Shown: positions 4,023-42,594 of the stretch, piece after piece
How the letters are laid out: every line of letters begins with the position of its first letter
How positions within the stretch are numbered: position 1 is the first letter of the stretch
Virus record (IMG/VR): IMGVR_UViG_3300049988_000124
Span: 32,001 to 96,000 of that record
Length of the DNA stretch: 64,000 bases
DNA from: a virus
Lineage: Duplodnaviria; Caudoviricetes
Direction: 5' to 3' (one strand)
Made by a program: the position numbers and the translations under genes
The notes under the pieces: model-generated
Databases searched by the model: none
What the model saw: only the letters and a program-made list of their open reading frames with translations
What the model was told of the DNA's origin: nothing

Positions 4023-5777
4023 ATGAGTGATGACAAGATCGTCGCTAGAACACTGCTTCATGCTTGCCACGTGCCCAACACCGGACACGGCAAGGATGCC
4101 GTGGTGATCTCTGAGATCATCGAGAATGACAAAGGAGAAGTACGCCCTAACTTAAGGATCTTTCGCTCCCCTAATGTTTCCTTCTGGGTAACTCAGGAGC
4201 CTTACCGAATCCACAATGACAAGAAAGAGTTCGAGGACAAGAAGCGCCTGGATGAGTTCAGTGTTCCCCACGCCACCAAGGACGAGGAGATTCACTTTGC
4301 GCTCTATGGCCGCTATCCTCGCTTCCTAGACCCTAAGCGTCGCCGCGAGATGTACAAGAGCCCTTATTTGTACGGGGGCAACATCATGATCGAAGCGCGG
4401 GTCGCGATGAAGTATAAGAAGGATCTCATTGCCGCTGGTAGAACGCCTCACGCGCCCACTACAGGCTTCTTTGATATCGAGATGTCCCTTCTTAAGTCCT
4501 CGTATGGAAAACTGCCCCTGATGGTCTTTACGTCAGAGAATCAGGTGTTCCTCACGATGAAGCAATCGTTCATGAACGAGATCAGAAATGGTCGCCGGGT
4601 GGACGTGACCGTCGATGACATCACCAAGGCAGCCCACGAACACCTTGATCCCTTGATCGACTCGATCTTTGCTGAGAACAAGGATCTGTCCGACTATAAG
4701 GGGAAGCTCCCTTTCCAATACCACTTCCACGTCGGGGAAACCGAGGTGGAGATGATCAAGTGGATCTTTGGTAAGATGCACGAGACCAAGACATCGTTCA
4801 TCGGTGTCTGGAACCTGGGCTTCGATATCCCTGAGATCATCCGAGTGCTAGAGGAATCTGGTATTCCCCTGGAGGACGTCTTTGCTGACCCATCACTGCG
4901 TCAGTCAGGCTTTGCTCTATCCAGTTACCGGGAAGACCAACGACAGGTCCAGCACTTTACGCAGAAGTGGCACTGGCTCTCTGCTACGGCTCACTTCCAG
5001 TTCGTTGACTCGATGGCGCTCTACAGCTACATCCGCGTCGTTGACGGCAAGGAAGCATCCTACGCGCTCGATGACATCTTGAAGAAGTTTAACCTAGGCG
5101 GTAAGCTCAAGGTCGGGCAGACTGAGGAGCTAGAGGGCCTACAGACGGAGGACTGGCACCGAGAGATGCTGTCTAAGCATTTCTTGAACTACGCGCTCTA
5201 CGCCATGTGGGACGGCATTGGTCTCCAGCTCCTCGAGTGGAACAACAACGATCTGACGGCCATGATGCTCCTGGGTGGCACAACACCGCCTAAGTATTTC
5301 GTGAACCAGACGATCCGAGTGACCAACACGCTCTTTGAGGAATGGCTCGCTAAGGGTCAGGTGCTGGGTACCGGCGTTGATGTGGAAGGTATGCGCGATG
5401 TTGACCTTCTAAACTTCGGTGGGGCCGTCTTGCAGCCGCAGGATCTAACCGGTCGGGGTATGAAGCTCTTCGTTGAATGGCCCAACCACCGGACCAACTG
5501 CTACGCGTGGTTGAACGACGTGGACTTCTCCGCGCAGTACCCAACTAACACCATGTGCTTGAACATCTCCAAGCAAACCAAGATTGCCACCATGGTCGCG
5601 ATCAAGGCAACGCACGTGAACGTTAAGTTCAACGAGAAGGAAGCGATCGAAGTCTTCTGCAGTTATCTCATCACCCCGAACTCCAACGGGGTTGAGATGG
5701 GCGTTGATTTCTTCAACCTTCCAGATTACGCAGAGATGGACACCCAGTTCCAACAGCGCTTGGAGCTCATGCACTAG
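4023..5777 (+). CDS. Split family-B DNA polymerase, exonuclease + motif A subunit (phiKZ-type)
   Basis: ExoI FFDIE, ExoII WNLGFDIP, ExoIII YAMWD and PolB motif A DFSAQYP near the C-terminus. Motifs B and C are absent, as in the split phiKZ polymerase. Confidence 0.8.
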   Translation: MSDDKIVARTLLHACHVPNTGHGKDAVVISEIIENDKGEVRPNLRIFRSPNVSFWVTQEPYRIHNDKKEFEDKKRLDEFSVPHATKDEEIHFALYGRYPRFLDPKRRREMYKSPYLYGGNIMIEARVAMKYKKDLIAAGRTPHAPTTGFFDIEMSLLKSSYGKLPLMVFTSENQVFLTMKQSFMNEIRNGRRVDVTVDDITKAAHEHLDPLIDSIFAENKDLSDYKGKLPFQYHFHVGETEVEMIKWIFGKMHETKTSFIGVWNLGFDIPEIIRVLEESGIPLEDVFADPSLRQSGFALSSYREDQRQVQHFTQKWHWLSATAHFQFVDSMALYSYIRVVDGKEASYALDDILKKFNLGGKLKVGQTEELEGLQTEDWHREMLSKHFLNYALYAMWDGIGLQLLEWNNNDLTAMMLLGGTTPPKYFVNQTIRVTNTLFEEWLAKGQVLGTGVDVEGMRDVDLLNFGGAVLQPQDLTGRGMKLFVEWPNHRTNCYAWLNDVDFSAQYPTNTMCLNISKQTKIATMVAIKATHVNVKFNEKEAIEVFCSYLITPNSNGVEMGVDFFNLPDYAEMDTQFQQRLELMH

Positions 5778-9828: not shown

Positions 9829-10020
9829 TTAACGATTTAGAAAGTCAGTCAAAGGAACAAGGGTTGGCTTGTTCTGTTGGACCCAATCCTCAGCGTCCTC
9901 AACGTTGTCGGGCACTTCGACAATGCTGCTCTCACCAGCATCGATGAGGGTACCAGTTCCCTGATGGTAAACCATTATGGCCATGATGACTCCGTTGAGC
10001 AAACTATAAGTGATGGGCAA
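9829..10020 (-). CDS. Small hypothetical protein
   Basis: 63-aa ORF; the start may be the internal ATG near 9987. Confidence 0.45.
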   Translation of the reverse strand: MPITYSLLNGVIMAIMVYHQGTGTLIDAGESSIVEVPDNVEDAEDWVQQNKPTLVPLTDFLNR

Positions 10021-39231: not shown

Positions 39232-40200
39232 TTAGTAGGGCATGTCTTCTTCGATCATGAGATCCTCGGTCTCAATGTCGGTTCCAGGATCACCGAAGAT
39301 TGCTACCCGCCTGGTGCGCATACCAATCTTTTCCTGACTAGCCAACCACACTTGCATGGCGGACAGTCGGTTGTTGTTGTGACCCTTGGGTTTGATCAAG
39401 ATAACGTCGTCGGCCATCTCGCACATCAAGTTACCCTGATGTAGATTAGCACCAATCCCGTTCTTGGCCTTGTTGGGTTTAACAACGAGGCAAGGCTTTC
39501 CTGTCTTGCGGTGAACGTAGGTGGCATCCTGATCCTTTAGAAAGTCAGTACCACCGATATACGCATCGACCCCTGGGTACCCACCAGAGATAATGCCGTC
39601 ATAGTCACTGAGTGACAAGCCCATCTTGACTTCGAGGGACTTCTCAATAGCCCAGTCAATCGCCTCCTGCTCTTTTTCCGTGAGACCATAATCGAGGGGA
39701 CCTGCGATCATGAGGTACTTGGAGCGAATGTCTGTCTTGTCCGGTGACATGGACAGGAAGATCGTGGCATCGAGATCACCTAGGAACTCGATCATCATCG
39801 GGTAAACCGTGTCGTAGGTCTGCTTCCCCAGACCACAACCGAGCATCGGCATACCAACGGCGGCGTAGCGATATTGATCTTGCAAGAGAACTTCACGCAA
39901 AGCAATAAGCCCGCGCTTGATATCTGCTTCCTCCGACTTGTTGACGTAGTGATCCTTGGTGGGAAAGTTAATAATCCCCCACGGCTGATCAGTGTCGGTG
40001 ATGATCTGAACCGTGCCGATGCGCAGTTCCTTACTGCGACACGCTGCCCGGTACACTTCGATGTGGTTGGGAGCCTTGTCCCTGAAGACGGCGGCGAGGC
40101 CTGCACCCGATACACCCCTGAGGTTAACCGGGTTGACCATGAAGTCCATGACTGATTCGAACTCGAACATGTCGTGAGTCACGCGGTGAATAAGCGGCAT
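39232..40200 (-). CDS. DarG/Poa1-like Macro domain fused to a SLOG (YspA-like) domain
   Basis: Macro: VNPVNLRGVSGAGLA..F, IINFPTKDH, MPMLGCGLG. SLOG-like: LMIAG, IISGGYPGVD, GNLMCEMADDVILI. Confidence 0.75.
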   Translation of the reverse strand: MPLIHRVTHDMFEFESVMDFMVNPVNLRGVSGAGLAAVFRDKAPNHIEVYRAACRSKELRIGTVQIITDTDQPWGIINFPTKDHYVNKSEEADIKRGLIALREVLLQDQYRYAAVGMPMLGCGLGKQTYDTVYPMMIEFLGDLDATIFLSMSPDKTDIRSKYLMIAGPLDYGLTEKEQEAIDWAIEKSLEVKMGLSLSDYDGIISGGYPGVDAYIGGTDFLKDQDATYVHRKTGKPCLVVKPNKAKNGIGANLHQGNLMCEMADDVILIKPKGHNNNRLSAMQVWLASQEKIGMRTRRVAIFGDPGTDIETEDLMIEEDMPY

Positions 40201-40603: not shown

Positions 40604-40633
40604 ATCAGAGGAAGGGTCGCCCCCTCCTCTGAT
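40604..40633 (-). terminator. Hairpin terminator after the CtrA-like gene
   Basis: ATCAGAGGA...TCCTCTGAT inverted repeat. Confidence 0.6.
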
Positions 40634-40666: not shown

Positions 40667-41086
40667 TTACGCAGCTTGATCGAGTTCACGGGGATCATTA
40701 CCCCAGGCCTGGATGATGTCGATACTGGCCGCATCCAAGTAGTAACCTCGACCCCAAGATGTCAGCACTTCAAGACCGTAGTTCTTCATCTTCTTGCGAA
40801 GCTTGCAAACAAAGACGTCGACGATCTTTGGTTCCGGCTGATCTATCTGATCGTAGTAGAGGGCGTAGAAGAGACGCTCTCTAGTAACGACTCCGCCTTT
40901 GGCTACGTAAAGTGCGGCAACGATGCGAGCCTCTTGCGTAGTAAGCCCAATCTCAATAGGTGGTTCCCACTCAGGAGGACGAAGAGTAAGGCGAAGCTGA
41001 GTGATCTCTTCTTCTTTCTCACTGAGAAGAGCTTTCAGTTGTCTGATCTCCTCTCTCAGGAGAACAGGATCATCGACTTTAAGCAT
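40667..41086 (-). CDS. CtrA-like OmpR/PhoB winged-helix DNA-binding domain with an N-terminal coiled coil and no receiver domain
   Basis: LTTQE...LY..EPKIVDVFVCKLRKK...TSWGRGYYL closely matches the CtrA C-terminus (EPELKIIDVFICKLRKK...TVWGRGY). Start reassigned to 41086 (GGAG RBS, overlaps the upstream stop). Confidence 0.85.
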   Translation of the reverse strand: MLKVDDPVLLREEIRQLKALLSEKEEEITQLRLTLRPPEWEPPIEIGLTTQEARIVAALYVAKGGVVTRERLFYALYYDQIDQPEPKIVDVFVCKLRKKMKNYGLEVLTSWGRGYYLDAASIDIIQAWGNDPRELDQAA

Positions 41087-41957
41087 GTTTGTTAATCTCC
41101 TGCTTAATGAATGATGCCAGGTGCCAGAACTGCGCTTCTCGCTGATTACCAGCTTCTCTGGCATGTGCCATCTTGGAGGCGACCTCCAGATCCTTTACCC
41201 CTCCCCGACCAACAGCATTGATGATCTGAAGGTCAACAGTTGCAGGCGCACCCTTTAGCGCTAGTGGACTGTTGGGCTTCAGGGTCAGCTCAGTCAGAGC
41301 CTTGATCCAGAGTTGCGAAACGCCAGGGAGACGGAGCTCTACGGCAAGGCTCATGATTCGCTGAACATAAGGACGACCACCTTGGCTGGCGAGCTCGAGA
41401 AGCGCACCAACGCAAATAGTCTCACCAACGCGCATGTCGCCGTAAGGCTTGGGACGCTTGATGACGGATGCTTCCGCGCGCTGACATCCCTCAACAACTT
41501 CAAGGGCATCCTCGTCCTTAGAGGCAACCATGGCCCAGAAGTTCTCCACCGGCGTCACTGACGTACGCTGATTGTTAAGCTTCACGAACGAGCTAGCACG
41601 GCTCTCCTTGGTCTCGCCGACCCGTCCGGGCCAACACCACAATTCACGAATGTGACCGTTGGTGAGCGCCGCAATCGAGGTGTGCTGACCATCTAGGATC
41701 TCGTAGAGAGGCAGACCTGTAGTCTCATCAGTCTCACCGATAGGCGAGACGACTGGCATGTGGAAAAGTTCCCAATCGAATTCAAGCGCAATCTTGGAGG
41801 CAAGTCTGGAACTGTCGCGACTGAGCTGTCGCTGATATTCATCGTTGATTCGAAGCTGACTAGTTTTCAGGAGGATAGGGGAGGGAGTGGGACCAGGATC
41901 GCGCTTCTCCTTACCCTTGGGAAGGATGAGTGCACGAAGTCTGCGTAGCTGAGTCAT
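41079..41957 (-). CDS. ParB/Srx-like N-terminal domain protein (DUF6551-like)
   Basis: SQLRINDEYQR...FDW..F..PVVS...YEILDGQHT..AA. Start reassigned to 41957 (AAAGGA RBS). Confidence 0.7.
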   Translation of the reverse strand: MTQLRRLRALILPKGKEKRDPGPTPSPILLKTSQLRINDEYQRQLSRDSSRLASKIALEFDWELFHMPVVSPIGETDETTGLPLYEILDGQHTSIAALTNGHIRELWCWPGRVGETKESRASSFVKLNNQRTSVTPVENFWAMVASKDEDALEVVEGCQRAEASVIKRPKPYGDMRVGETICVGALLELASQGGRPYVQRIMSLAVELRLPGVSQLWIKALTELTLKPNSPLALKGAPATVDLQIINAVGRGGVKDLEVASKMAHAREAGNQREAQFWHLASFIKQEINKHA

Positions 41958-42030
41958 GGGCACACATCCTTTCATTCGTGTGAGTGCGTCTATAACAAGA
42001 TTGTTTAAAAGGTTGTAATCTTCTCTGAGT

Positions 42031-42071
42031 AGGAGTGGTACACCTTAGGTTAAGTAAAGTGTACCACTCCT
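42031..42071 (-). terminator. 13-bp stem / 15-nt loop hairpin between mucR and the ParB-like gene
   Basis: AGGAGTGGTACAC...GTGTACCACTCCT; no clear U-tract, so it may be a leaky terminator or processing site. Confidence 0.55.
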
Positions 42072-42076
42072 GGTAA

Positions 42077-42520
42077 TTACTTCTTCTTGGTGATCTTCTG
42101 ACCAGCCTTACGACCCAGGCCCATCTTCTTGGCAGTCTCACTGCGCTGCTTCGAATACGAGGGAGCGACCACCGGATAGTCATCCTTCAGTCCGTAGCGA
42201 GCCCGGTACTCCGCTGCGGTCAGACCGTGACCGGTGAGATGTCGCTTCAACGTACGGTAGGGTTTCCCGTCGATCATGGAGATGATGTAGTCGGGCAGCT
42301 TGGCGAGTGACTGACGCACCGTGACTGCCTTGGTGAACGTCTCCGGTGCTTCCTTGGCAACAGACACGCCTCCGTTACCGATTTGCTGAAGCGTAGTGTC
42401 GATGCTCGTGAGAAGAATAACAGCGTCCTCGGCGGTAGCCTTATTCGATGGGTTCTCGAGGAACGCGGCCGTAATCACTGCTGCTACATTGACACGGTGT
42501 GCAGCGTTAATGGGGAGCAT
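42077..42520 (-). CDS. mucR: MucR/Ros-family transcriptional regulator (zinc-less type)
   Basis: AVTVRQSL...DYIISMIDGKPYRTLKRHL..HGLT..EYRARYGL..DYPVVAPSYS..RS..AKKMGLGRK is the Ros/MucR signature. GGAGG RBS. Confidence 0.93.
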   Translation of the reverse strand: MLPINAAHRVNVAAVITAAFLENPSNKATAEDAVILLTSIDTTLQQIGNGGVSVAKEAPETFTKAVTVRQSLAKLPDYIISMIDGKPYRTLKRHLTGHGLTAAEYRARYGLKDDYPVVAPSYSKQRSETAKKMGLGRKAGQKITKKK

Positions 42521-42586: not shown

Positions 42587-42594
42587 GTAATATA
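42587..42594 (-). promoter_or_regulatory. Early promoter motif TATATTAC upstream of mucR
   Basis: Exact match 67 nt upstream of the mucR start. Confidence 0.75.

What the first reader, a model, noticed from the sequence alone, without database searches (positions are those of the whole stretch)
40667..41957. Receiver-less CtrA-like DNA-binding protein translationally coupled to a ParB-like protein
The wHTH recognition region is nearly that of CtrA (KIVDVFVCKLRKK...WGRGY), but the phospho-receiver is replaced by a short coiled coil, which predicts a constitutive, phosphorylation-independent dimer. It overlaps the ParB-like gene by 8 nt (ATGCTTAA). CtrA is the established master regulator that blocks replication initiation and controls division, pili and flagella. 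A constitutive mimic could freeze the host cell cycle or remove phage receptors (inference). Similar gene pairs, as I recall, occur in alphaproteobacterial prophages, so the novelty is the lytic jumbo-phage context.
Basis: partly seen in the sequence, partly recalled or inferred. Interest (0 to 1): 0.75.

Follow-up and report, generated by a model that had tools for sequence, protein, structure and literature searches.

The report
Phage CtrA look-alike paired with ParB-like protein
A 308-kb jumbo phage, probably of a sphingomonad, carries a conserved two-gene unit: a ParB-fold protein coupled to a small, self-dimerising copy of the DNA-binding half of the bacterial cell-cycle master regulator CtrA, most likely used to act on the host's CtrA-controlled genes without needing phosphorylation.

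Summary
On the minus strand, a 139-aa gene (40667-41086) overlaps a 292-aa gene (41079-41957) by ATGCTTAA.

- **The small protein.** It is an OmpR/PhoB-type winged helix. It scores far better against NCBI's CtrA model than any other regulator (57 vs 33 bits). It keeps CtrA's recognition helix and wing almost letter for letter. The receiver domain and the N-terminal beta-sheet are replaced by a heptad helix, which models as an in-register parallel dimer (ipSAE 0.48, best control 0.00).
- **The large protein.** It is a divergent ParB/Srx-fold protein of the DUF6551 family (Z 12.3 to ParB). It has no Pfam ParB_N hit, and the GxxR phosphate motif reads GQHT.
- **A real unit.** CtrA-like genes sit beside 25 of 52 DUF6551 loci in alphaproteobacterial prophages and viral contigs. 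Both gene orders occur, and natural fusions exist.
- **No phage targets seen.** The phage genome has no TTAA-N7-TTAA box, so host targets are the likelier reading. This is inference.
- **Prior knowledge.** Receiver-less phage CtrA was already noted in roseophage RDJLPhi1 (Hynes 2016, Fogg 2019). This scan has noted the ParB-like/CtrA-like pair on another genome. The conserved ParB-like partner, the coiled coil and the jumbo-phage setting are the new parts. Function remains untested.

The parts
40667..41086 (-). Gene for the 139-aa receiver-less CtrA-type DNA-binding protein (P0001)
   Evidence: Translation. Pfam Trans_reg_C E 6e-13. Best NCBIfam family is CtrA NF045991, 57 bits against 33 bits for PhoB. 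Homologues of 113-145 aa start at the same position.
40982..41068 (-). N-terminal heptad helix (residues 7-35), the predicted parallel coiled-coil dimerisation element
   Evidence: AF2 helix H7-35, pLDDT above 90. Homodimer model ipSAE 0.48 against 0.00 for the best control, with in-register contacts 10-10, 14-14, 17-17, 21-21, 24-24, 28-28 and 31-31.
40736..40954 (-). Winged helix-turn-helix domain (residues 45-117); recognition helix 88-101, wing 107-117
   Evidence: Pfam profile positions 3-77 of 77. Foldseek matches to SaeR, AdeR, ArlR and PhoB DNA-binding domains at about 2 A over 73 residues. Residues K87 I88 D90 V91 C94 R97 W111 G112 G114 Y115 are invariant in 21 receiver-less relatives and shared with bona fide CtrA.
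41079..41086 (-). ATGCTTAA stop/start overlap between the two genes
   Evidence: Sequence read. Overlaps of 4-20 nt are kept in L002, L003, L008, L011 and L067.
41097..41101 (-). AGGAG ribosome-binding site for the wHTH gene, inside the 3' end of the ParB-like gene
   Evidence: Read directly from the sequence; 10 nt before the ATG at 41086.
41079..41957 (-). Gene for the 292-aa divergent ParB/Srx-fold protein of the DUF6551 family (P0002)
   Evidence: Translation. 1397 representative clusters of relatives. 41 of 60 relatives hit Pfam DUF6551. AF2 model pLDDT 94. Top structural matches are Noc, ParB and KorB.
41562..41885 (-). ParB N-terminal (CTPase-fold) domain, residues 25-132, with the invariant YQR (41-43) and DGQH(T) (89-93) motifs
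   Evidence: VIA-align Z 12.3, rmsd 2.3 A over 94-97 residues to M. xanthus and C. crescentus ParB. Invariant columns.
40607..40627 (-). Terminator-like G+C hairpin just after the wHTH gene; member of a genome-wide repeated hairpin family
   Evidence: Terminator scan. Inverted-repeat family AGAGGAGGGC/GCCCTCCTCT with about 21 copies in the genome.
42031..42071 (-). 17-bp-stem hairpin between the MucR-like gene and the ParB-like gene
   Evidence: RNA fold -26.9 kcal/mol, z -6.0. The aligned position in the related contig L002 carries TATATTAC.
42077..42520 (-). Upstream MucR/Ros-family gene (context; same strand, same probable early transcription unit)
   Evidence: Pfam ROS_MUCR E 1.7e-32. Nearest named homologues are Sphingomonas and Novosphingobium at 50-57% identity. 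Absent at this position in relatives L002 and L067.
42587..42594 (-). TATATTAC promoter-like motif upstream of the MucR-like gene
   Evidence: Seven exact copies in the window, all on the minus strand, against 0.5 expected. The same octamer lies about 90 nt upstream of the ParB-like gene in L002.

Best explanation
This is an early, accessory two-protein unit of a PhuZ-encoding jumbo phage whose host is probably a sphingomonad.

**Protein 1** is a divergent ParB/Srx-fold protein of the DUF6551 family.

**Protein 2** is translated from an overlapping start. It is a CtrA DNA-binding domain without the phospho-receiver, held as a permanent dimer by an N-terminal parallel coiled coil.

**Proposed mechanism.** The recognition helix, the loop before it and the wing are those of CtrA. 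The dimer therefore most likely binds CtrA-type TTAA half-sites. The phage genome carries no TTAA-N7-TTAA box, and the phage has its own RNA polymerase. The likely targets are therefore host CtrA-controlled promoters and possibly the origin. Binding there would not depend on the CckA-ChpT phosphorelay.

The ParB-fold partner works with the wHTH protein as one unit, since some phages encode the two as a single polypeptide. It probably acts as a nucleotide-gated cofactor that is brought to, or stabilises, the bound sites.

**Shown and not shown.** Shown: the anatomy, the CtrA-specific likeness, the dimer model, the ParB fold, conservation of the pair, and the absence of boxes on the phage. Inferred: DNA specificity, host targeting, the sign of the effect (activation or blockade), and the partner's role.
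For: **CtrA-specific likeness**
- The CtrA model NF045991 scores 57 bits; the next family, PhoB, scores 33 bits.
- Where the source gives a name, the two-domain hits of a 5.8-billion-protein search are called CtrA; the rest are unnamed or generic response regulators.
- The recognition helix PKIVDVFVCKLRKKM compares with CtrA's LKIIDVFVCKLRKKM, and the wing WGRGY is identical.

**Dimer**
- ipSAE 0.48 (three runs 0.47-0.50) against 0.00 for the best control. At least 56% of contacts agree between runs, and partner pLDDT is at least 70.
- The mark was reached by 20 of 30 solved pairs of one chain and 1 of 23 single chains.
- The interface is residues 5-35, in register.

**ParB fold**
- Foldseek probability 1.0 to Noc, ParB and KorB.
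- Z 12.3, rmsd 2.3 A, 94-97 residues.

**A conserved unit**
- The pair with overlapping genes is present in related jumbo-phage contigs (L002, L067), in other phage contigs (L003, L008), and in reversed order in a Mu-like prophage (L011).
- A CtrA-like wHTH lies next to the DUF6551 gene in 9 of 15 alphaproteobacterial genome loci and 16 of 37 IMG/VR contigs.
- Natural fusions occur in both orders: P0216, P0255 and P0253.

**No boxes on phage DNA**
- There are 0 TTAA-N7-TTAA sites in 307,821 bp.
- One-mismatch sites at N7 number 35, against 37-80 at other spacings.
- No boxes occur within 3 kb of the pair in 15 prophage loci.
- No 5-mer direct repeat is enriched at a spacing of 10 or 11 bp.

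**Position and context**
- The pair lies downstream of a TATATTAC motif. The motif is directly upstream in L002 and reaches the pair through the MucR-like gene here.
- In the Mu-like prophage the pair sits in the accessory early region beside GemA.
- The phage has a phiKZ-type RNA polymerase subunit.
- Elsewhere the phage encodes a hybrid histidine kinase whose best named matches are CckA, and a MucR homologue sits next door. Several parts of the alphaproteobacterial cell-cycle circuit are therefore present in one phage.
Against: - No binding or phenotype data exist for any member of this family.
- Zero boxes against about one expected by chance is not significant in itself. Single TTAA half-sites (576 in the genome) could serve as phage sites, especially with a partner protein.
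- The domain lacks the N-terminal beta-sheet of OmpR-type domains, and T168/L169 of CtrA are V/V here. Specificity or RNA polymerase contact may therefore differ.
- A symmetric coiled-coil dimer need not place the two domains head-to-tail as phosphorylated CtrA is thought to.
- In small temperate phages the CtrA-like gene sits near candidate late-gene regulators. Examples are the GafA homologue in RDJLPhi1 (PMC6363796) and the Crp-like and NusG-like genes in L003. This fits a role on phage promoters.
- The partner lacks the GxxR arginine and fails Pfam ParB_N, so nucleotide gating is not assured.
- The host is inferred only from gene likeness.
Confidence: 0.5

Rival explanations
1. The pair regulates the phage's own DNA. 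The wHTH dimer would bind phage sites, either TTAA-type half-sites or a diverged motif. The ParB-fold partner would load or spread there, to switch phage transcription or to organise, partition or package phage DNA. In this reading the CtrA likeness reflects ancestry, not a host target.
For: - In RDJLPhi1 the CtrA-like gene lies between homologues of the GTA activator GafA and rcc01866 (PMC6363796, PMC5026251).
- In L003 the pair is followed by Crp-like and NusG-like genes and then a small terminase.
- In L010 a lone CtrA-like gene directly precedes the portal gene.
- DUF6551 domains are also fused to an ECF sigma factor, a DnaA domain-IV HTH and GcrA. This suggests a general transcription-factor accessory.
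- ParB-family proteins classically act on the replicon that encodes them.
Against: - There is no full CtrA box anywhere in the 308-kb genome, and no enrichment at N7 with one mismatch.
- No repeated 5-mer pair occurs at 10-11 bp spacing.
- No boxes lie within 3 kb of the pair in 15 prophage loci.
- A phiKZ-type phage transcribes with its own polymerases (own knowledge), so an activator built to contact host RNA polymerase has little use on phage promoters.
- The base-contacting positions of the recognition helix are kept exactly as in CtrA across 21 relatives. That conservation is unexpected if the target motif had drifted.
Confidence: 0.28
2. The wHTH dimer guides a ParB/Srx-fold enzyme or clamp to host CtrA boxes in order to damage or silence host DNA. 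This could be nicking, or KorB-like long-range repression, in place of mimicking CtrA's transcriptional output.
For: - The fold is closest to the CTP-dependent clamps ParB, Noc and KorB, including the KorB-KorA co-complex 8qa9 (Z 10.8 over 166 residues).
- Natural fusions show that the DNA-binding module and the ParB-fold module act in one complex.
- Phage ParB-fold proteins carrying DUF6551 bound CTP or ATP in vitro (bioRxiv 10.1101/2025.10.10.680097).
Against: - The GxxR arginine needed for triphosphate binding in ParB is a threonine here, and Pfam ParB_N is not matched.
- No nuclease motif was identified.
- The proteins tested in the preprint were selected by a ParB_N hit that this protein lacks.
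Confidence: 0.15
3. The pair is a recently acquired passenger from a temperate alphaproteobacterial phage, with no selected role in the jumbo phage.
For: - The pair is far more common in 16-89-kb phage and prophage contigs than in large ones.
- The neighbouring MucR-like gene is a lineage-specific insertion.
Against: - Related jumbo-phage contigs keep both genes intact at about 62% identity. They have the same neighbours (DUF7484 on one side, a macro-domain gene on the other) and keep the overlap.
- Nine clusters of P0002 relatives at 59-62% identity exist.
- That much divergence with intact frames implies purifying selection.
Confidence: 0.05

Closest known systems
CtrA, the essential cell-cycle response regulator of Alphaproteobacteria (NCBIfam NF045991)
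   Same: - It is the best-scoring family for the wHTH.
- The recognition helix, the preceding D-x-P-E-x-K loop and the WGRGY wing are nearly identical.
- The protein ends in Ala-Ala, as many CtrA proteins do.
   Different: - There is no receiver domain and no phospho-acceptor Asp.
- The N-terminal four-stranded sheet of the DNA-binding domain is missing.
- A coiled coil replaces the receiver.
- Two extra C-terminal helices are present.
- It scores 57 bits against a cut-off of 350, so it is not an orthologue.
Receiver-less CtrA homologue of roseophage RDJLPhi1 (gp37) and relatives in Rhodobacter and Paracoccus phages
   Same: - It is phage-encoded and keeps only the CtrA DNA-binding part. This was already noted in PMC5026251 and PMC6363796.
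- Identity is 35-47% over the domain.
   Different: - The RDJLPhi1 gene is flanked by GafA and rcc01866 homologues, not by a ParB-fold gene.
- It has a C-terminal extension in place of the N-terminal heptad helix.
- Its phage is a 62-kb siphovirus, not a 308-kb PhuZ phage.
KorB-KorA of plasmid RK2 (ParB-family CTP clamp plus small dimeric DNA-binding partner)
   Same: - A ParB-fold protein is encoded with a small dimeric sequence-specific DNA-binding protein.
- KorB, including the KorB-KorA co-crystal 8qa9, is among the best structural matches of P0002.
   Different: - KorA is a plain HTH repressor, not a winged helix.
- KorB keeps the GxxR motif and its own operator-binding HTH.
- No interaction has been tested here. 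The resemblance concerns how the unit may work, not family membership.
DUF6551 (PF20188) phage and prophage ParB-fold proteins
   Same: - 41 of 60 relatives of P0002 match the family.
- Phage proteins carrying this domain bound CTP or ATP in DRaCALA assays (bioRxiv 10.1101/2025.10.10.680097).
   Different: - P0002 itself scores 16.8 bits, below the 26.8 cut-off.
- It lacks a detectable Pfam ParB_N hit.
- No function is known for the family.

Membership tests
OmpR/PhoB-type winged-helix DNA-binding domain (Pfam Trans_reg_C) | Profile match above the curated cut-off | tested here: met
   49.1 bits against a cut-off of 26.2, profile positions 3-77 of 77. Confirmed on the whole genome as the only copy.
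OmpR/PhoB-type winged-helix DNA-binding domain (Pfam Trans_reg_C) | Three-helix core with recognition helix followed by a beta-hairpin wing | tested here: met
   AF2 model has H50-61, H69-77, H88-101, E107-110 and E114-117. Foldseek matches SaeR, AdeR, ArlR and PhoB domains at about 2 A over 73 residues, probability 1.0.
OmpR/PhoB-type winged-helix DNA-binding domain (Pfam Trans_reg_C) | N-terminal four-stranded antiparallel beta-sheet preceding helix 1 | tested here: not met
   No strands occur before residue 50 in the model. In the alignment with CtrA, the stretch corresponding to the sheet is replaced by the heptad helix and the PPEWEPP linker.
CtrA orthologue (NCBIfam NF045991) | Full-length match above the equivalog cut-off (350 bits) | tested here: not met
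   57.1 bits; only model positions 148-221 of 224 are matched.
CtrA orthologue (NCBIfam NF045991) | Receiver domain with phospho-acceptor aspartate | tested here: not met
   No Response_reg hit in the protein. The only receiver domain in the genome lies in a hybrid kinase at G000 250322-250633.
CtrA orthologue (NCBIfam NF045991) | CtrA-type recognition helix and wing (K-I-[IV]-D-V-F-[IV]-C-K-L-R-K-K ... W-G-R-G-Y) | tested here: met
   Alignment with five two-domain relatives (three labelled CtrA by JGI; one, P0065, also labelled as a generic response regulator by NCBI; one unnamed). CtrA is the best family by 24 bits.
CtrA orthologue (NCBIfam NF045991) | Binding to TTAA-N7-TTAA boxes | not testable with these tools
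   Only the absence of such boxes on the phage genome could be measured.
ParB/Noc/KorB family (ParB N-terminal CTPase fold) | ParB/Srx fold of the N-terminal domain | tested here: met
   Z 12.3, rmsd 2.3 A, 94-97 aligned residues to ParB of M. xanthus and C. crescentus. Foldseek E 4e-5, probability 1.0. Model pLDDT 94.
ParB/Noc/KorB family (ParB N-terminal CTPase fold) | Match to Pfam ParB_N (PF02195) | tested here: not met
   No match in the whole phage genome at E 0.01 or better and none in the Pfam scan of the protein.
ParB/Noc/KorB family (ParB N-terminal CTPase fold) | GxxR phosphate-binding motif (Box II GERRxR) | tested here: not met
   The equivalent turn reads D89-G90-Q91-H92-T93. G, Q and H are invariant or nearly so in 60 relatives, and T93 is nearly invariant among the 12 closest relatives; no arginine is present. 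The mapping onto ParB boxes rests on my own knowledge of ParB sequences.
ParB/Noc/KorB family (ParB N-terminal CTPase fold) | Central helix-turn-helix DNA-binding domain | tested here: inconclusive
   KorB aligns over model residues 26-237 (Z 10.8, rmsd 5.5 A, 166 residues) and Noc over 25-228, but with rmsd 12 A. No sequence-level HTH hit was found.
ParB/Noc/KorB family (ParB N-terminal CTPase fold) | CTP (or other NTP) binding | not testable with these tools
   The only evidence is indirect: DUF6551-bearing phage proteins bound CTP or ATP in bioRxiv 10.1101/2025.10.10.680097.
DUF6551 (PF20188) | Profile match above the curated cut-off (26.8 bits) | tested here: inconclusive
   P0002 itself scores 16.8 bits, E 0.005. 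41 of its 60 aligned relatives match, best E 6e-13.
Translationally coupled gene pair | Overlapping stop and start, with a ribosome-binding site inside the upstream gene, conserved in relatives | tested here: met
   ATGCTTAA overlap and AGGAG 10 nt upstream. Overlaps of 4-20 nt in five other loci. Coupling of translation itself is inferred.

The most novel reading that the evidence does not exclude
The pair would be a phage-borne, two-part DNA-silencing or re-programming device aimed at the host cell-cycle regulon. The permanent CtrA-domain dimer would mark host CtrA boxes and the origin, and would load or lock the ParB-fold partner there. The logic is KorA-KorB-like, turned against the host. 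In this jumbo phage it would work together with a phage MucR homologue and a phage CckA-like kinase, taking over the whole CckA-CtrA-MucR circuit from the cytoplasm while phage DNA is transcribed by phage polymerases.
Probability: 0.15. Interest if true: 0.85.

Novelty: new variant of a known kind. Interest (0 to 1): 0.6.

Why it matters
CtrA is the master switch of the alphaproteobacterial cell cycle, motility, pili and gene-transfer agents. Its activity is normally set by phosphorylation and timed proteolysis.

A phage protein that keeps CtrA's DNA-reading surface but dimerises on its own would be a natural phosphorylation-independent allele. It would also be a direct handle on how phages seize or freeze the host cycle.

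The recurrent ParB-fold partner, including natural fusions, points to an uncharacterised use of the ParB fold as a cofactor of transcription-factor domains. The same DUF6551 family is also fused to sigma, DnaA and GcrA modules.

The pair sits in a PhuZ-type jumbo phage that also carries MucR-like and CckA-like genes. This suggests that large phages of Alphaproteobacteria assemble sets of host cell-cycle regulators. That idea is testable with simple expression and ChIP experiments.

Tried and rejected
- **Nucleotide search.** A megablast of the 6-kb region against 50,697 phage records found nothing.
- **PDB sequence searches with P0002.** Alone it gave no hit. As a 60-sequence profile it gave only chance-level hits. 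The ParB likeness is visible only by fold.
- **First genome-contig scan.** It was repeated with 12 closer sequences.
- **RDJLPhi1 gp38.** It is not related to P0002, so that phage does not have this pair.
- **Neighbours of the six DUF6551 genome loci without a CtrA-like gene.** They gave only an MT-A70 methylase and an HNH nuclease in one locus and nothing in the others. No alternative partner was identified there.
- **GcrA.** No homologue was found in the phage.
- **Chimallin.** The 605-aa ORF next to the RNA polymerase subunit and a 621-aa ORF gave no hit to PDB sequences. The 605-aa ORF, and the 576-aa ORF on the opposite strand of it, gave no hit to phage records. Neither candidate matched a named PHROG. 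The ESM Atlas, queried with the 605-aa ORF only, gave no hit. Nucleus formation is therefore unverified, not excluded.
- **Literature.** A search for the TATATTAC motif gave only irrelevant papers. Its likeness to the phiKZ early promoter rests on my own recollection. The RDJLPhi1 genome paper does not mention CtrA. The 2026 Roseobacter/CtrA paper does not discuss a phage-encoded CtrA.
- **Longer ORF.** The 165-aa ORF starting at 41164 was rejected as the wHTH gene. It would overlap P0002 by 86 nt, and homologues start at the position of the ATG at 41086.
Full report
**What is there**

The window is bases 32001-96000 of a 307,821-bp IMG/VR virus record. The record carries several jumbo-phage markers:
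- a PhuZ-type tubulin (phrog_4733, E 6e-38);
- a capsid protein of the large-phage type;
- a DNA polymerase whose nearest relatives are phiKZ-like jumbo phages such as 201phi2-1, RP12/RP31 and Xoo-sp14;
- a phiKZ-type RNA polymerase beta subunit just outside the window (phrog_2987, E 1e-76).

The two genes of the finding lie on the minus strand.
- The downstream gene runs 40667-41086 and gives 139 residues.
- The upstream gene runs 41079-41957 and gives 292 residues.
- They overlap in ATGCTTAA.
- An AGGAG sits 10 nt before the downstream ATG.

**The small protein**

Pfam Trans_reg_C matches residues 45-117 (E 6e-13). Among NCBI's curated regulator models, the CtrA equivalog is the best by a wide margin: 57 bits, against 33 for PhoB and less for 19 others.

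A search of 5.8 billion proteins gave two kinds of hit:
- short receiver-less proteins of 113-145 residues;
- two-domain response regulators, which are called CtrA wherever the source gives a specific name (the rest are unnamed or labelled as generic response regulators).

Aligned with the two-domain proteins (three of the five labelled CtrA by JGI), the recognition helix reads PKIVDVFVCKLRKKM against LKIIDVFVCKLRKKM. The loop before it keeps D-x-P-E-x-K, and the wing WGRGY is identical. In 21 receiver-less relatives the residues K87, I88, D90, V91, C94, R97, W111, G112, G114 and Y115 never vary.

Three things are missing or changed:
- The receiver domain is absent.
- The four-stranded sheet that normally precedes helix 1 of an OmpR-type domain is also absent.
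- The AlphaFold model (pLDDT 89) shows one long helix (residues 7-35), a proline-rich linker, the three-helix core with its wing, and two extra C-terminal helices.

Its structural neighbours are OmpR/PhoB-family DNA-binding domains, at about 2 A over 73 residues.

Two copies of the protein model as an in-register parallel coiled coil through residues 5-35. The score is ipSAE 0.48 (three runs 0.47-0.50) against 0.00 for the best of three controls. At least 56% of contacts agree between runs, and partner pLDDT is at least 70. The mark was reached by 20 of 30 proteins solved as pairs of one chain and by 1 of 23 solved as single chains. This supports, but does not prove, a constitutive dimer.

A further detail: 31 of 43 distinct receiver-less relatives end in alanine, and 20 end in Ala-Ala. 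The phage protein ends QAA. From my own knowledge, the terminal Ala-Ala of CtrA is a ClpXP determinant. Whether it works here is untested.

**The large protein**

It has no hit in NCBIfam or in PDB sequences. Its only Pfam hit is a sub-threshold match to DUF6551 (16.8 bits).

An exhaustive search found 1397 representative clusters of relatives, and 41 of 60 aligned relatives match DUF6551.

With that alignment AlphaFold gives a confident model (pLDDT 94).
- Its best matches in the PDB are Noc, ParB and KorB (Foldseek E 4e-5 to 1e-3, probability 1.0).
- Residues 25-132 superpose on the ParB CTPase domain with Z 12.3 and rmsd 2.3 A over 94-97 residues.
- KorB aligns over residues 26-237 (Z 10.8).

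'ParB-like' is therefore right as a fold. It is not a canonical ParB, for two reasons:
- Pfam ParB_N finds nothing in the whole genome.
- The turn that carries GERRxR in ParB reads DGQHT, with no arginine.

The invariant YQR (41-43) and N128 would correspond to ParB boxes I and III. That mapping rests on my recollection of ParB sequences.

A 2025 preprint reports that phage ParB-fold proteins carrying DUF6551 bind CTP or ATP (bioRxiv 10.1101/2025.10.10.680097). Those proteins were chosen by a ParB_N hit that this one lacks.

**The two genes are one unit**

Pairs with overlapping genes occur in several places:
- Related jumbo-phage contigs keep both genes at about 62% identity. The genes overlap and have the same neighbours: DUF7484 on one side, a macro-domain gene on the other (L002, L067).
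- More distant pairs occur in an 18-kb phage contig (L008) and a 31-kb one (L003).
- A Mu-like prophage of a 5.1-Mb genome has the pair in the opposite gene order, beside GemA (L011). The source names the protein as from an uncultured Cohaesibacter.

A pattern scan of one genome per prokaryote species found 15 loci, all in Alphaproteobacteria: Hyphomonadaceae, Caulobacteraceae, Rhizobiaceae, Methylobacterium and Paracoccus. Nine of them have a CtrA-like winged helix immediately downstream.

In IMG/VR, 16 of 37 contigs have it. All 37 are between 7 and 89 kb.

Three representative proteins are natural fusions of the two parts, in both orders: P0216, P0255 and P0253. The junction of P0253 looks like a possible frameshift artefact.

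The same DUF6551 domain is also found fused to an ECF sigma factor, a DnaA domain-IV helix-turn-helix, a GcrA segment, and GP88/DUF7227. The ParB-fold module thus looks like a general companion of DNA-binding or transcription modules. Several of those modules derive from alphaproteobacterial cell-cycle regulators.

An earlier follow-up in this scan, on another genome, reached the same conclusion about the conserved ParB-like/CtrA-like unit (e1-5345127). I reached it here from independent searches.

**Where does it act?**

I counted CtrA boxes on the whole phage genome.
- There are 576 TTAA sites but no TTAA-N7-TTAA; about one is expected.
- With one mismatch, N7 gives 35 sites, against 37-80 for spacings 4-11.
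- No 5-mer direct repeat is enriched at 10-11 bp spacing.
- No box lies within 3 kb of the pair in 15 prophage loci or within about 5-6 kb in the metagenomic contigs.

On its own, zero against one expected proves nothing. Three other facts add weight:
- the CtrA-type base-contacting positions are exactly conserved;
- the phage has its own RNA polymerase;
- the pair sits in an early or accessory position.

On position: a TATATTAC motif occurs seven times in the window, all on the minus strand, against 0.5 expected. It precedes the MucR-like gene here and lies directly upstream of the ParB-like gene in L002. Together these make host DNA the more likely target.

The phage also carries other parts of the same host circuit:
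- a MucR/Ros homologue immediately upstream (E 1.7e-32), whose nearest named relatives are all Sphingomonas or Novosphingobium;
- a 505-residue hybrid histidine kinase, 180 kb away, whose best named matches are CckA;
- a permuted tmRNA of the alphaproteobacterial type.

**Mechanism proposed, and its limits**

The most likely reading (about 0.5) has four steps:
1. The pair is made early.
2. The coiled-coil dimer of CtrA domains occupies host CtrA boxes regardless of the CckA-ChpT phosphorelay.
3. The ParB-fold partner joins it as a nucleotide-gated cofactor.
4. The host's CtrA regulon, and perhaps replication initiation, is imposed or blocked.

The sign of the effect cannot be told from sequence.

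The main rival (about 0.28) is a role on phage DNA. Smaller phages suggest this, because there the CtrA-like gene lies next to candidate late-gene regulators (RDJLPhi1: PMC6363796, PMC5026251; L003).

A guided-clamp or guided-enzyme version (about 0.15) and a neutral passenger (about 0.05) remain possible.

**Novelty**

Receiver-less CtrA homologues in phages were noted in 2016 and 2019 for RDJLPhi1, and are annotated in GenBank. That part is known but uncharacterised.

In the held literature I found no description of three things:
- the conserved coupling to a DUF6551 ParB-fold gene;
- the N-terminal coiled coil;
- any occurrence in a jumbo phage.

I class it as a new variant of a known kind. 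It is of fair interest to people working on the alphaproteobacterial cell cycle, ParB-fold proteins and jumbo phages.

Noticed in passing
G000:C1:250289-251806 (minus strand; outside the window; locus L028:1468-2985): A 505-aa phage-encoded hybrid histidine kinase (HisKA, HATPase_c and receiver) without an obvious sensor region. Its best named NCBIfam equivalogs are CckA (264 and 228 bits, far below the cut-off); the best overall hit is PRK13557. It could act on the same CckA-ChpT-CtrA pathway as the CtrA look-alike.
   Followed up: partly
window 42077-42520 (minus): A MucR/Ros-family gene lies directly upstream of the pair. Its nearest named homologues are all Sphingomonas or Novosphingobium (50-57% identity), which points to a sphingomonad host. 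The gene is absent at this position in the related phage contigs L002 and L067, so it is a lineage-specific insertion.
   Followed up: partly
window 42031-42071 (minus): A perfect 17-bp-stem hairpin (-26.9 kcal/mol, z -6) lies between the MucR-like gene and the ParB-like gene. Its loop region aligns with the TATATTAC motif of the related contig L002, as if an old promoter had been overwritten.
   Followed up: partly
window 41990-42002 (minus); L002 about 4095-4107; L067 about 9960-9972: A conserved T[GC]TTAT(A)GA element lies about 35-40 nt upstream of the ParB-like start codon in three related phages. It is possibly a second promoter for the pair.
   Followed up: no
whole genome; one copy at window 40607-40627: A repeated inverted-repeat family (AGAGGAGGGC ... 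GCCCTCCTCT, about 21 copies) looks like a shared terminator hairpin. One copy closes the ParB-like/wHTH unit.
   Followed up: no
C-termini of 43 receiver-less CtrA-like proteins (P0001, P0003-P0049 and loci L013-L057): 31 of 43 end in Ala and 20 in Ala-Ala, resembling the C-terminal ClpXP determinant of CtrA. This suggests that protease control was retained although the receiver was lost.
   Followed up: partly
proteins P0181, P0197, P0209, P0185, P0212 (relatives of P0002): The DUF6551 ParB-fold domain is naturally fused to a DnaA domain-IV HTH, an ECF sigma factor, a GcrA segment and GP88/DUF7227 domains. This range of DNA-binding and RNA-polymerase-binding partners recalls the domain make-up of the GTA activator GafA.
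   Followed up: partly
G000:C1:302824-303274 (minus; outside the window): ARAGORN calls a permuted (two-piece) tmRNA next to a cluster of tRNA genes. Permuted tmRNAs are typical of Alphaproteobacteria.
   Followed up: partly
G000:C1:12186-14003 (minus; locus L029:2187-4004): A 605-aa ORF sits next to the phiKZ-type RNA polymerase beta subunit, in the place where phiKZ has chimallin. It has no detectable sequence relative in PDB, phage records, PHROGs or the ESM Atlas. Either it is a very divergent shell protein or the phage lacks one.
   Followed up: partly
window 39232-40200 (minus): A 322-aa macro-domain protein (Pfam Macro E 3e-9; phrog_335 'phosphatase') lies two genes downstream of the pair. 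It is conserved in the same place in L067.
   Followed up: no
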